From the NCBI RefSeq assembly GCF_003334405.1, contig NZ_QOWM01000025.1: DNA of 39,980 bases, one strand, 5' to 3'. Position 1 is the stretch's first letter. Every line of letters starts with the position of its first letter. Shown piece by piece: positions 2,393 through 5,700 of the stretch. Both the position numbers and the translations under genes were made by a program. The notes under the pieces were generated by a model. That model worked only from the letters and a program-made list of their open reading frames with translations. It ran no database searches and was not told the origin of the DNA. The DNA is from Escherichia coli (GTDB taxonomy: Bacteria; Pseudomonadota; Gammaproteobacteria; Enterobacterales; Enterobacteriaceae).

Positions 2393-2754
2393 CATATTTC
2401 GCATTTGAATATTGGTCAGGATCTCACACCTGCTTCATGTGAAACTCTTCCCTGATGATTTCTGCCGGGCTACCGGCTAGTTCTCTTTCGCAGTTTGCCA
2501 GGCGGTATCGGTATTTTCAGGAGGAAAAGACTCGGCATGTTTGGGATTATTAAGCTGACAATTCATACGATTACGGGAATGTGGGTCAGTATTGTGTTGT
2601 TCAAATTGATGACGAATGGCTGGAGTGGTTTCTACTTTCAGTGCTGTGTACTAAGCCTGGTATTCCTGACGGTTAGCTGGTTGTTGAGTGGTGAATGGTT
2701 AGCAGGAAAGAGTAAGGCTGAACCTTCATGTTCAACCTTACTCTCATTTACACG

Positions 2755-5700
2755 TTACGCTTTTTTAAAGCGGGCAAAGAGATGTTCCACTACAACGAAA
2801 AAGACCGGAACGAAGTAAATTGCCAGCACTGTTGCGGCAAACATCCCGCCCATCACGCCGGTACCTACCGCGTTTTGCGCGCCAGAACCGGCACCATGAC
2901 TGATAACCAGCGGCAGCACGCCGAGAATAAAGGCCAGAGAGGTCATCAGGATTGGGCGTAAACGCATCCGCGCCGCTTCGATGATTGCCTCTATCGGCGT
3001 TTTCCCTTCTTTCTGCATCATCTCAACGGCAAATTCGACAATCAGGATGGCGTTTTTGGCGGAAAGCCCGATGGTGGTCAGCAAACCAACCTGGAAGTAG
3101 ACGTCATTACTTAAGCCGCGCAGATCGGTGGCCAGTAATGCGCCAACGACGCCTAACGGAACAACCAACATCACCGAGAACGGAATTGACCAGCTCTCAT
3201 AGAGTGCGGCGAGGGCGAGGAACACCACGACCAGTGAAATCGCATACAGCGCAGGAGCCTGATTTGAGGATAACGCTTCCTGATACGATAGTCCGGTCCA
3301 TGAGTAGCCGACGCCTGCCGGAAGTTTAGCGACCAGGTCTGCCATAAATTTCATGGCGTCACCGGTACTTTTCCCGGCCGCCGCTTCACCTAAAATCTCC
3401 ATTGACGGGATGCCGTTGTAGCGTTCCAGTCGCGGTGAACCATAGGTCCATTCGGTAGACGAGTAGGCAGAAAGCGGTGCCATCGTGCCAGAGGCGTTGC
3501 GTACATACCATTGGTTGATGTTATCCGGCAACATACGGAACGGCGTGCCTGCCTGGACATACACTTTTTTCACCCGCCCCTGGTTGAGGAAGTCGTTCAC
3601 GTAGCTGCTGCCGAAGGCGGTGGAAATTGTCTGGTTGATATCAGACAGCGCCACGCCCATCGCTTCAGCTTTCGCAGCGTTGACGTTCACTTTGAACATC
3701 GGCGTATCTTCCAGGCCGTTCGGGCGTACCCCGGTGACCTGATTCGGTGATTGCGCTGCCAGTGATAACAGCTCGTTTCGCGCCTGGGTTAGTTTTTCGT
3801 GCCCCAGGTTACCGTTGTCCAGCAGTTCCATATCAAAACCTGACGCGGTACCCAGTTCAGCCACCGCGGGTAAGTTGAACGGGAAGACGACGGCTTTATT
3901 GATACTGCTTAACGCAATCATTGCCCGCTGAATGATCGCGGTAACCGAGTTTTCCTCACCGACACGTTCAGACCACGGCTTGAGACTGATAAACGCCAGG
4001 CCGTTGTTTTGCCCCTGACCGCTGAAGCCAAAGCCGCCAACGGTAAACACCGACTGGACATTATCTTTCTCTTTAGTCAGATAATAATCCGTCACCTGTT
4101 GCAGCACTTTCGTGGTGTTAACCATGGTGGCACCGGAAGGTAACTGCGCGGTGGTCATAAATACCCCCTGATCCTCTTCTGGTAAGAAAGAGGTCGGCGT
4201 GCGCAGGAACAGCACCGCCATCCCGGCGCAAATCAGCAGGTAGACCACCATGTAGCGACCGGTACAACGCAACAGCGAGAGGGTGCTATCGGTATAGTGT
4301 TGAGTTGATTTTTCAAACAGCGTGTTGAAGCGTGCGAACAGGGCGTTAGGTTTGTGACCGCCTTCCGGCGCGGCTTTCAGAATGGTGGCGCACAGGGCAG
4401 GGGTCAGGCTCATTGCCACAAATACTGAAAGCAGCATGGAGGAGATCAGCGTGATGGAGAACTGGCGGTAGATCTCCCCGGTTGCACCGCTCATAAAGGC
4501 CATCGGCATAAACACTGCGGAAAGAACAACGGCAATACCGACCAGCGCACGTTGGATCTGCCCCATCGATTTATGCGTCGCTTCCTTCGGCGGTAGCTTA
4601 TCTTCCGCAATGACACGCTCGACGTTCTCCACCACCACGATGGCGTCATCCACCAGTAACCCTATCGCCAGCACCATCCCGAACATAGTCAACGTGTTGA
4701 TGGTGAAACCGACCGCCGACAAGATCGCAAACGTCCCGAGAATAACCACCGGTACGGCAATCGTCGGGATGATTGTGGCACGGAAATTCTGCAAAAACAG
4801 ATACATGACCAGGAAGACTAGGATGATAGCCTCAACCAGTGTTTTGAAAACTTCCTGAATAGAAATTTCGATAAACGGCGTGGTGTCGTAAGGATAAACC
4901 GTCTTCAGACTTGCCGGGAAATAGGCTGATAAGCGGTTCAGTTCCTCTTTGACTGCCCGCGAGGTATCCAGGGCGTTTGCTCCGGCAGCCAGTTTGATGG
5001 CGATCCCGGCAGCAGGTTTGCCGTTATAGCGCGCCACGGTGGAATAATCTTCCGCCCCAAGTTCGACGCGAGCGACATCACGCAGCAGCACTTGCGAACC
5101 ATCTTGCTGAACTTTCAACAGGATTTTGCCAAATTCTTCCGGCGTTTGCAGACGCGTCTGCACAATGATCGAGGCGTTTAGCTGCTGGTCTGCCGCCTGT
5201 GGCATGCCACCCAGTTGACCACCGGAAATCTGGTTGTTTTGCACCTTAATCTGGGAAATAACATCGGAAGGTACCAGGTTATATTTATTGAGTTTTTGCG
5301 GGTCCAGCCAGATACGCATGGCATACTCGGAACCAAAGAGTTGTACGCTACCAACGCCCGCGGTACGGCTTAGCGGGTCTTTGATATTAGACGCTACATA
5401 GTCCGCGATATCGTACTGGTTGAGGCTGCCGTTATCAGAAATAAACGCCGCTACCATCAGGATATTACTGCTCGACTTATCGACGCTAATCCCCTGCTGC
5501 TGCACTGCTTCAGGTAATGAAGGCATAGCGAGTTGCAGTTTATTTTGCACTTGAACCTGTGCGATATCAGGAGATGTCCCAGTCTCGAAGGTCAGAGTGA
5601 TAGAGGCATTGCCCGCCGCATCACTGGTTGAAGACATGTACATCAGGCCATCAAGCCCATTCATATTTTGCTCAATCACCTGAGTGACCGAGTCTTCTAC

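What the first reader, a model, noticed from the sequence alone, without database searches (positions are those of the whole stretch)
2495..2818. Possible unannotated small membrane ORF in the convergent gadW-mdtF gap
A plus-strand ORF (107 codons; from ATG 2535, 94 aa) is preceded by an AGGAGG Shine-Dalgarno-like motif (about 12 nt upstream of ATG 2535) and encodes hydrophobic segments (WVSIVLFKLM…, CCVLSLVFLTVSWLL). It overlaps the mdtF 3' end by 64 nt on the opposite strand. It is probably spurious, but the SD-like motif makes it worth a quick check.
Basis: seen in the sequence. Interest (0 to 1): 0.18.

Follow-up and report, generated by a model that had tools for sequence, protein, structure and literature searches.

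The report
Real acid-induced small membrane protein gene
The open reading frame between gadW and mdtF is not noise: it is a genuine, evolutionarily conserved gene for a small two-helix membrane protein that has already been published twice (XECs371, sORF15) but is still missing from reference annotations and has no known function.

Summary
The ORF is real, with small coordinate corrections. The ATG is at 2537 (not 2535), the product is 93 aa (not 94), AGGAGG lies at 2519-2524, and the overlap with mdtF is 64 nt. It is identical in coordinates and sequence to sORF15 of Schumacher et al. 2023, who reported it acid-induced in Ribo-seq and detected a C-terminally FLAG-tagged version by Western blot. 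It is also the ORF listed as XECs371 by Hücker et al. 2017 from EHEC RIBOseq. RefSeq does not annotate it.

My own tests show purifying selection on the protein. The frame is intact at 93 codons, with no indels or stops, in seven Escherichia lineages out to E. albertii. It is the only one of six frames that stays open. Variable sites by codon position are 20/14/41 (p=3e-4), and dN/dS is 0.09-0.23, against 0.03-0.11 for gadW. E. fergusonii carries a syntenic 54-aa ortholog (49% identity, invariant GWSGFxFxCC motif) that ends before mdtF. The conserved unit is therefore a two-helix membrane hairpin. The E. coli-type C-terminal 39 residues read through the mdtF terminator hairpin into antisense mdtF.

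No homolog was found outside Escherichia, and no Pfam, NCBIfam or PDB match. Function is untested. The most likely role is a small modulator of a larger membrane protein during acid stress.

The parts
2537..2818 (+). Coding sequence of the small membrane protein (sORF15 / XECs371), 93 aa plus TAA
   Evidence: ORF. Identical to NC_000913.3:3663464-3663745(-) and to the 93-aa sequence in Table S7 of PMC10746267. Frame intact in 7 Escherichia lineages. dN/dS 0.09-0.23.
2519..2524 (+). Shine-Dalgarno-like AGGAGG, 12 nt upstream of the ATG
   Evidence: Read. Invariant, within the conserved block TTTTCAGGAGGAAAAGA, in all 7 lineages, while the preceding spacer varies.
2537..2698 (+). Conserved core, codons 1-54: two hydrophobic helices joined by the turn TNGWSG, followed by FYFxCC
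   Evidence: dN/dS 0.04-0.19; variable columns by codon position 16/8/32, p=3e-4. Kyte-Doolittle profile. AF2 helices 2-27 and 29-57. This is the part shared with the 54-aa E. fergusonii ortholog.
2699..2754 (+). Non-overlapping part of the C-terminal extension (codons 55-72), absent from the E. fergusonii ortholog
   Evidence: Weaker constraint: dN/dS 0.09-0.46, variable columns 4/6/9. Includes the K-12-specific Cys65, which is Arg in the other E. coli strains.
2755..2818 (+). Last 21 codons plus stop, antisense to the last 21 codons of mdtF; net charge +8
   Evidence: Overlap computed. dN=0 in all lineages, and the third codon positions of the two genes coincide, so the constraint cannot be assigned to either gene. 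Charge.
2708..2745 (-). 16-bp hairpin 10 nt after the mdtF stop (terminator-like, mdtF-sense strand), lying inside codons 58-70 of the ORF
   Evidence: RNAalifold consensus -25.3 kcal/mol, with one compensatory pair (UA to CG) and G-U pairs that would be C-A mismatches on the plus strand. More stable on the minus strand in all 7 lineages, -22 to -29 versus -17 to -23 kcal/mol.
1664..2392 (+). gadW, the upstream same-strand gene; the ORF lies in its 3' UTR
   Evidence: ORF and K-12 annotation. PMC10746267 places sORF15 in one transcription unit with gadX-gadW. No sigma-70-like promoter was found on the plus strand in 2200-3000.
2755..5868 (-). mdtF, the convergent RND efflux permease gene
   Evidence: The arrangement gadW, small ORF, convergent mdtF is kept in E. 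fergusonii. In the other 6 species-level loci the gadW-proximal gap and the mdtF 3' end align collinearly to the window.
2464..2477 (+). Short GC hairpin GCCGG-GCTA-CCGGC in the spacer, a possible leaky gadW terminator or processing site
   Evidence: Terminator-like hit. The 5' arm is invariant, and the 3' arm varies in ways that are G-U compatible on the plus strand (alignment). It is partly deleted in L004.

Best explanation
This is a genuine protein-coding gene. Its 93 codons run from ATG 2537 to TAA 2816-2818. It is the ORF published as XECs371 (2017) and sORF15 (2023).

Shown here: the amino-acid sequence is under purifying selection across the genus Escherichia. The start codon and Shine-Dalgarno motif are conserved. 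The conserved unit is an N-terminal hairpin of two hydrophobic helices, with an invariant G-W-S-G-F-x-F-x-C-C motif at the turn and the start of helix 2.

Taken from the literature: the ORF sits in the gadW 3' UTR within the gadX-gadW transcription unit. Its mRNA and ribosome footprints rise about 16-fold at pH 4.4. A C-terminally FLAG-tagged copy expressed from a plasmid yields protein.

Inferred: the protein inserts in the inner membrane with both ends in the cytoplasm, because the last 21 residues carry a net charge of +8, and the TNGWSG turn faces the periplasm. The E. coli-type C-terminal 39 residues are an extension that reads through the complement of the mdtF terminator hairpin into antisense mdtF. 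E. fergusonii has only the 54-aa core.

Most likely mechanism (inferred, untested): like other bacterial small membrane proteins, it acts by binding and modulating a larger inner-membrane protein during acid or stationary-phase stress. My rough split of partners is the neighbouring RND pump MdtF at about 0.25, GadC at about 0.1, a sensor kinase in the manner of SafA at about 0.1, and other or unknown for the rest. The confidence figure refers to the statement that this is a real, selected, translated membrane-protein gene, not to the choice of partner.
For: Identity with sORF15: same coordinates and sequence, acid induction with RIBO log2FC +4.21 (padj 1e-38) and RNA log2FC +4.03, Western blot and two-TM prediction.

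Identity with XECs371, which had translatome RPKM 23.4 and 48.8 and RCV 1.2-1.5 in two growth conditions.

Comparative evidence: the gap is 83-95% identical in 6 further species-level Escherichia genomes, with no indel from 2490 to 2830, while the upstream spacer has several. Only this frame of six is stop-free in all 7 lineages. Variable columns by codon position are 20/14/41 (p=3.2e-4), against 24/21/22 (p=0.9) in the spacer. dN/dS is 0.09-0.23, against 0.44-3.2 in the off-frames and 0.03-0.11 for gadW. One-sided binomial p reaches 2.7e-8.

Within E. coli: 10 of 10 divergent strains have the ORF intact, with 6 synonymous and 2 non-synonymous polymorphic sites, and 39 of 40 evenly spaced genomes show no net indel.

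E. fergusonii: a syntenic 54-aa ortholog with 49% identity over 41 aa, synonymous sites saturated (pS 0.93, pN 0.33) and differences by codon position 23/11/40.

Structure: helices at 2-27, 29-57 and 65-90, supported by the hydropathy and charge profile.
Against: No protein has been detected from the chromosomal locus; the Western blot used an arabinose-driven plasmid.

The ORF is not listed in the Ribo-RET supplement of Stringer 2021. That dataset may simply not have sampled a condition in which this locus is expressed; I did not check its growth conditions.

The SD-to-ATG spacer of 12 nt is longer than optimal, and E. fergusonii has a GTG start with no obvious SD.

The last third of the ORF cannot be judged independently, because it is constrained by the mdtF coding sequence and the mdtF hairpin.

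Rare truncated or frameshifted alleles and one IS66 insertion exist.

The AF2 model has only modest confidence (mean pLDDT 63).

Nothing here or in the literature tests any binding partner or phenotype. E. fergusonii has both gadBC and mdtEF, so co-occurrence does not discriminate between partners.
Confidence: 0.85

Rival explanations
1. It is a spurious ORF, open by chance in an AT-rich spacer and antisense to a gene end. Any ribosome footprints reflect pervasive, non-functional translation of the gadW 3' UTR.
For: ORFs of this length are common by chance. The antisense frame whose third positions coincide with those of mdtF tends to stay open. RefSeq does not annotate it in any sampled genome. 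The neighbouring candidate sORF14 is indeed not conserved.
Against: The codon-position periodicity, dN/dS of about 0.1, absence of indels across 7 lineages, conserved SD and ATG, and a 49%-identical ortholog retained after synonymous saturation are not expected for a neutral ORF.
Confidence: 0.03
2. The conservation serves an RNA-level function, such as the gadW 3' UTR, the mdtF terminator, or antisense pairing between the convergent gadXW and mdtEF transcripts. Translation would be incidental or would matter only in cis, for example for mRNA stability, and the peptide itself would have no role.
For: A conserved 16-bp hairpin with a compensatory change lies inside the ORF. The ORF mRNA must overlap the mdtF 3' end by at least 64 nt. 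dS of the ORF (0.17-0.79) is lower than that of gadW (0.24-4.3), which suggests additional nucleotide-level constraint.
Against: The strongest protein-level constraint lies in codons 1-54, upstream of the hairpin and the overlap. In E. fergusonii the nucleotides of the core are only 53% identical, yet the peptide motif is retained. There the ORF neither overlaps mdtF nor contains the terminator, which is a separate GC hairpin. No Rfam family matches in the gap.
Confidence: 0.05
3. It is a membrane-damaging toxin of the type I toxin-antitoxin kind, held in check by antisense RNA from the convergent mdtF transcript.
For: The protein is small and hydrophobic, its 3' end overlaps a convergent transcript, and it is taxonomically restricted.
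Against: At 93 aa with two or three helices it is larger than typical type I toxins. No antisense sRNA family was detected. In E. fergusonii there is no overlap with mdtF. The published pBAD overexpression for 1 h gave detectable protein, and no toxicity is mentioned in the passages I read.
Confidence: 0.04
4. Mechanism-level rival: the protein is not a pump accessory. It would instead belong to the Gad acid-resistance machinery, either by modulating the glutamate/GABA antiporter GadC, or as a SafA-like connector encoded next to an AraC-type acid regulator that signals to a sensor kinase.
For: It is co-transcribed with gadX-gadW and induced at pH 4.4. From my own knowledge, there is a precedent in the safA-ydeO operon, which pairs a small membrane protein with an AraC-family acid regulator. 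E. fergusonii, which keeps the core ORF, also has gadB and gadC.
Against: No sequence relation to any Pfam family, including SafA. There is no experimental link. Conserved adjacency to mdtF fits the pump hypothesis equally well.
Confidence: 0.2

Closest known systems
sORF15 (Schumacher et al. 2023, mSystems 8:e01037-23, PMC10746267)
   Same: It is the same object: NC_000913.3:3663464-3663745(-) maps exactly to window 2537-2818, and the 93-aa sequence is identical. That study reports it as acid-induced, predicted to have two TM helices, and FLAG-detectable.
   Different: The paper treats it as a candidate. It supports conservation only with BLAST hits above 80% identity, including hits in unrelated genera. 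This analysis adds a selection test, the 54-aa E. fergusonii ortholog, the core-plus-extension architecture, and the finding that the family is restricted to Escherichia.
XECs371 (Hücker et al. 2017, PLoS One 12:e0184119, PMC5597208)
   Same: It is the same reading frame in E. coli O157:H7 Sakai. That study reports it as translated in RIBOseq, predicted to be an inner-membrane protein with 2 TM helices, and scored 'real' by their classifier.
   Different: It was called from an upstream CTG (window 2462), giving a 118-aa product. Conservation does not support that start, because indels in L004, L005 and L008 break the upstream frame.
E. fergusonii ATCC 35469 'hypothetical protein; putative exported protein' (P0048, CU928158.2)
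   Same: It occupies the syntenic position between a gadW-like gene and convergent mdtF. It shares 49% identity over the two-helix core and the invariant GWSGFxFxCC motif.
   Different: It is only 54 aa, with a GTG start 19 nt after the gadW-like stop and no clear SD. It lacks the C-terminal basic helix, does not overlap mdtF, and is followed by its own GC-rich hairpin.
AcrZ (49-aa accessory protein of the RND pump AcrB)
   Same: It is a possible functional analogue: a small inner-membrane protein associated with a stress-induced RND efflux system. MdtF is an AcrB homologue and was itself co-purified with AcrZ.
   Different: There is no sequence relationship, as Pfam gave no hit at all. sORF15 has two or three helices and 93 aa, against one helix and 49 aa. 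AcrZ is not encoded next to its pump (my own knowledge). No binding data exist for sORF15.
SafA (B1500), the small membrane connector encoded with the AraC-family acid regulator YdeO
   Same: The genetic logic is the same: a small membrane protein encoded in one operon with an AraC-type regulator of the acid-resistance cascade. This comparison rests on my own knowledge and is a lead, not a test.
   Different: SafA is a single-pass protein with no detectable sequence similarity to sORF15. The target and activity of sORF15 are unknown.

Membership tests
Published candidate sORF15 / XECs371 | Same genomic coordinates and the same amino-acid sequence | tested here: met
   Window x corresponds to MG1655 coordinate 3666282 - x, so ATG 2537 is 3663745 and the stop end 2818 is 3663464. 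Table S7 gives 3663464-3663745(-) with an identical 93-aa sequence. The XECs371 sequence contains the same 93 aa apart from R65.
Published candidate sORF15 / XECs371 | Ribosome footprints over the ORF and acid induction | not testable with these tools
   Taken from the papers: RIBO log2FC +4.21 at pH 4.4, and translatome RPKM 23.4 and 48.8 in Sakai.
Bona fide protein-coding gene (comparative criteria) | Reading frame intact in orthologous loci of diverged relatives | tested here: met
   93 codons with no stop and no indel in 7 lineages. It is the only open frame of the six. 10 of 10 E. coli strains are intact.
Bona fide protein-coding gene (comparative criteria) | Excess of synonymous over non-synonymous change, with three-base periodicity | tested here: met
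   dN/dS 0.09-0.23; core 0.04-0.19; variable columns 20/14/41, p=3.2e-4; binomial p down to 2.7e-8.
Bona fide protein-coding gene (comparative criteria) | Conserved start codon and ribosome-binding site | tested here: met
   ATG and AGGAGG are invariant in 7 lineages. The exception is E. fergusonii, which uses GTG without a clear SD.
AcrZ family of RND-pump accessory proteins | Sequence membership in the Pfam AcrZ family | tested here: not met
   The Pfam-A scan returned no family even at E<=10. NCBIfam returned none.
AcrZ family of RND-pump accessory proteins | Single transmembrane helix of about 50 aa | tested here: not met
   93 aa with two hydrophobic helices and a third C-terminal helix.
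AcrZ family of RND-pump accessory proteins | Physical binding to the RND permease, altering its substrate profile | not testable with these tools
   No interaction data exist. The only evidence is conserved adjacency to mdtF.
Type I toxin-antitoxin system | Cognate antisense sRNA gene | tested here: not met
   No Rfam family matches in 2393-2830 at E<=1; the only hits in 1-8000 were GadY, ES205 and a miRNA-family chance hit at 112-177. The E. fergusonii ortholog has no antisense overlap with mdtF.
Type I toxin-antitoxin system | Toxicity on overexpression | not testable with these tools
   The published pBAD induction for 1 h gave detectable protein, and no toxicity is mentioned in the passages I read.
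SafA-like connector proteins | Sequence similarity to SafA | tested here: not met
   No Pfam hit of any kind.
SafA-like connector proteins | Encoded on the same strand immediately next to an AraC-family acid-resistance regulator | tested here: met
   The ORF lies 144 nt downstream of gadW on the same strand, and 19 nt downstream in E. fergusonii. Co-transcription is stated in PMC10746267.

The most novel reading that the evidence does not exclude
The protein is an Escherichia-restricted accessory subunit that docks onto the neighbouring RND permease MdtF, or onto another membrane protein of the acid-fitness island, and tunes it under acid or anaerobic stress. Its cytoplasmic basic tail would have arisen by overprinting: loss of the ancestral stop, still present in E. 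fergusonii, would have let translation run through the complement of the mdtF terminator into the antisense of the last 21 mdtF codons.
Probability: 0.2. Interest if true: 0.55.

Novelty: already known. Interest (0 to 1): 0.3.

Why it matters
The acid-fitness island is one of the most studied loci in E. coli, yet reference annotations still omit a gene from it. That gene is translated, acid-induced and under purifying selection.

There are practical consequences, which I infer from the standard design of these mutants. A gadW deletion or insertion is likely to be polar on this gene. An mdtF deletion removes or alters its last codons, because the two genes overlap by 64 nt. Phenotypes attributed to gadW or mdtF may therefore be partly due to the small protein.

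The comparison between the E. fergusonii short form and the E. coli long form also gives a clean natural example of a C-terminal extension built from a terminator and the antisense of a neighbouring gene. The invariant GWSGFxFxCC turn is a defined target for mutagenesis.

Tried and rejected
- TTG 2495 and CTG 2462 as start codons. Both were rejected. Residues upstream of Met are not conserved, TTG is lost in L005, and indels in L004, L005 and L008 break the upstream frame.
- A minus-strand gene or an mdtF read-through extension as the source of the periodicity. Rejected, because conserved stops at 2640, 2634 and 2565 interrupt that frame, and every other frame has stops.
- Domain and family searches. 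Pfam, NCBIfam and PDB sequence searches gave nothing. I did not run a fold search, because the model has a mean pLDDT of 63 and is a generic helical hairpin.
- Distant homologs. A profile search of 1.84 billion representatives and two searches of 5.8 billion proteins returned only Escherichia sequences. I therefore regard the published hits in Vibrio, Klebsiella, Salmonella, Enterococcus and Staphylococcus as probable mislabelled or contaminated records. Hücker's table lists a single 'Klebsiella' hit at 100% identity.
- Frameshift allele ΔA2707 (76 aa). I suspected a lineage-wide pseudogene, for example in O157. Rejected: the O157:H7 genome sampled and the other strains are intact, and 0 of 5148 complete genomes match the deletion exactly.
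- Independent start-site mapping. The ORF is absent from the Stringer 2021 supplement and from the PIRT-Seq 2025 main text.
- Co-occurrence to choose between GadC and MdtF as partner. Uninformative, because E. fergusonii has both.
- An AlphaFold run of a fused MdtF-linker-ORF. I considered it and did not run it, because the tool returns no inter-residue error or contact information, so an interface could not be judged.
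Full report
**Context.** The window is the E. coli acid-fitness island. It contains gadX (472-1296, +), the GadY sRNA (1308-1421, -; Rfam), gadW (1664-2392, +), mdtF (2755-5868, -) and mdtE (5893-7050, -). The window plus strand is the MG1655 minus strand, and window x corresponds to NC_000913.3 coordinate 3666282 - x.

**Observation check.** The ORF 2495-2818 exists. Reading one search gives three corrections. The in-frame ATG is at 2537, not 2535. The product from that ATG is 93 aa. AGGAGG lies at 2519-2524, leaving a 12-nt spacer. The overlap with mdtF is exactly 64 nt (2755-2818). Length alone is weak evidence, since 2.2% of Markov-random versions of the region contain an ATG-ORF this long, and the window holds 57 ATG-ORFs of at least 93 aa, several of them nested inside or antisense to much longer ORFs. 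Neither the MG1655 RefSeq record nor any of the 40 evenly spaced RefSeq E. coli genomes annotates a gene here.

**Comparative test.** A scan of one genome per species with GadW recovered six further Escherichia loci, including E. whittamii and E. albertii. The gap aligns at 83-95% identity.
- From 2490 to 2830 there is not a single indel, whereas the 144-nt spacer upstream has several, including an 11-nt deletion.
- From ATG 2537 all seven lineages encode 93 codons with no stop. Each of the other five frames has stops in every lineage.
- In the part that does not overlap mdtF (2537-2754), variable columns fall 20/14/41 on codon positions 1/2/3 (chi-square p=3.2e-4). The upstream spacer gives 24/21/22 (p=0.9).
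- Nei-Gojobori dN/dS against the window is 0.09-0.23. The two off-frames give 0.44-3.2 and gadW in the same genomes gives 0.03-0.11. The deficit of non-synonymous changes reaches a binomial p of 2.7e-8.
- AGGAGG and the ATG are invariant, while residues encoded upstream of the ATG are not conserved and TTG 2495 is lost in L005. ATG 2537 is therefore the start.

**Within E. coli.** 39 of the 40 evenly spaced complete genomes span exactly 438 nt for window 2393-2830. The fortieth carries an IS66 insertion at about 2577. Ten divergent strains all keep the ORF, with 6 synonymous and 2 non-synonymous polymorphic sites in the non-overlapping part. Cys65 of K-12 is Arg in all ten sampled divergent strains. 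Gene callers have produced variants of many lengths. The recurrent 76-aa form is a one-base deletion in AAA 2707-2709, seen mainly in read assemblies otherwise identical to K-12. None of 5148 complete genomes matches it exactly.

**A diverged ortholog.** A profile search of 1.84 billion representative proteins returned only fragments and variants of this protein, plus one diverged 54-aa sequence, P0048. It is encoded in E. fergusonii ATCC 35469, between a gadW-like gene (62% identical protein) and a convergent mdtF (93% identical), next to mdtE, gadE, hdeD, hdeAB and yhiD.
- It shares 49% identity over 41 residues with the window protein. G28, W29, S30, G31, F32, F34, C36 and C37 are invariant.
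- Between the two species the core is only 53% identical in nucleotides. Synonymous sites are saturated (pS 0.93, pN 0.33), and differences by codon position are 23/11/40 (p=1.8e-4).
- It starts at a GTG 19 nt after the gadW-like stop. It ends 42 nt before mdtF and is followed by a separate hairpin, GGCCGG-TTTC-CCGGCC.
- A broader profile that includes it still finds only Escherichia among 5.8 billion proteins.

**Architecture.**
- Codons 1-54 form the conserved core (dN/dS 0.04-0.19; variable columns 16/8/32). Hydropathy and AF2 place helices at about 2-27 and 29-57, joined by the TNGWSG turn.
- Codons 55-72 are less constrained (0.09-0.46).
- Codons 73-93 show dN=0. However, their third positions coincide with the third positions of mdtF on the other strand, so this constraint cannot be credited to the small gene. 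This tail carries a net charge of +8, which by the positive-inside rule (my inference) places both termini in the cytoplasm.
- A 16-bp hairpin at 2708-2745 lies inside codons 58-70, 10 nt after the mdtF stop. It is conserved in all seven lineages, has one compensatory pair, and has G-U pairs that work only on the mdtF-sense strand. It is 4-8 kcal/mol more stable on that strand. I read it as the mdtF terminator or 3' stabiliser.
- The E. coli-type protein is therefore a two-helix core plus a 39-residue extension that reads through the complement of that hairpin into antisense mdtF.

**Literature.** The ORF has been published twice.
- Schumacher et al. 2023 (PMC10746267) found sORF15 by inspecting the gadW 3' UTR in Ribo-seq. 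Their coordinates, 3663464-3663745(-), and their 93-aa sequence are identical to mine. At pH 4.4 versus 7.6 the RIBO log2FC is +4.21 (padj 1e-38), the RNA log2FC is +4.03, and translation efficiency is unchanged. They also report a DeepTMHMM prediction of two TM helices, an AF2 third helix, and a positive Western blot from pBAD24-sORF15:3xFLAG. They suggest an association with GadC or MdtF.
- Hücker et al. 2017 (PMC5597208) list the same frame in O157:H7 Sakai as XECs371, called from CTG (window 2462). It has translatome RPKM of 23.4 and 48.8 and a ribosome coverage value of 1.2-1.5 in two growth conditions. It is predicted to be an inner-membrane protein with 2 TM helices.
- I found no follow-up paper on function. 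It is absent from the Stringer 2021 Ribo-RET supplement and from the PIRT-Seq main text.

**Family comparisons.** Pfam, NCBIfam and PDB sequence searches gave no match. It is therefore not a member of the AcrZ or SafA families, although it could work like either. It does not fit a type I toxin either: it is too large, there is no antisense sRNA family in the gap, and the E. fergusonii form has no antisense overlap. Co-occurrence cannot separate an MdtF partner from a GadC partner, because E. fergusonii has both systems.

**Verdict.** The object is already known as a candidate, and this analysis strengthens the case that it is a gene under selection. I add the Escherichia-only distribution, the short E. 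fergusonii form and the overprinted C-terminal extension. Function remains open. The best-supported reading is a small inner-membrane modulator acting during acid stress.

Noticed in passing
window 2439-2480 (+): sORF14, the 13-aa GTG-start candidate that Schumacher et al. 2023 call 'high-confidence' in the same 3' UTR, is not conserved. Its stop is lost in L003, GTG becomes GTA in L005, and its length and frame differ in every other lineage. It shows no sign of selection as a protein.
   Followed up: yes
window 2464-2477 (+): A GC hairpin, GCCGG-GCTA-CCGGC, followed by a T-rich stretch sits between gadW and the ORF. Its 5' arm is invariant, and its 3' arm varies in ways that are G-U compatible on the plus strand. 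It may be a leaky gadW terminator or a processing site that sets how much transcript reaches the small gene.
   Followed up: partly
window about 2577; L002 (NZ_CP119441.1, E. coli O121): An IS66-family element (tnpA, tnpB, tnpC) is inserted inside codon 14 of the small ORF in one O121 genome. This was the only disrupted copy among 40 evenly sampled genomes.
   Followed up: partly
window 2707-2709; L019-L024: A one-base deletion in the AAA run gives a 76-aa frameshifted product. It recurs in several independent SRA read assemblies that are otherwise identical to K-12 across the ORF region compared (window 2537-2830), yet it is absent from 5148 complete genomes. It could mark a laboratory sub-lineage or be a systematic assembly artefact.
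   Followed up: partly
window 2729 (codon 65): K-12 carries Cys65, while all ten sampled divergent E. coli strains and several other species carry Arg. The K-12 allele used in the published experiments is therefore the minority form. The site lies in the loop of the mdtF hairpin.
   Followed up: partly
window 7200-7271 (-): An Rfam ES205 sRNA hit (105 bits) falls in the gadE-mdtE spacer. It coincides with the GadF sRNA annotated in MG1655 at 3658992-3659082.
   Followed up: no
window 2640-2757 (-): After the mdtF TAA stop, the mdtF frame stays open for 38 more codons in all seven lineages, until conserved stops at 2640 and 2634. This is probably a by-product of being antisense to the small gene with coinciding third positions, rather than a read-through extension.
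   Followed up: partly
L025 8166-8206 (E. fergusonii): In E. fergusonii the spacer between the short ORF and mdtF holds a different hairpin, GGCCGG-TTTC-CCGGCC. On the mdtF strand it is followed by TTAATTTTTGTT, a more canonical terminator than the E. coli one. The gadW-like gene there is flanked by another AraC-family gene and a histidine-phosphatase gene instead of gadX and gadA.
   Followed up: partly
literature (PMC10746267 Fig. S9C; PMC5597208 supplement): Both papers list near-identical 'homologs' in unrelated genera: Vibrio, Klebsiella, Salmonella, Enterococcus and Staphylococcus epidermidis. Searches of 1.84 and 5.8 billion proteins found the family only in Escherichia, so those records are probably mislabelled or contaminated assemblies.
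   Followed up: partly
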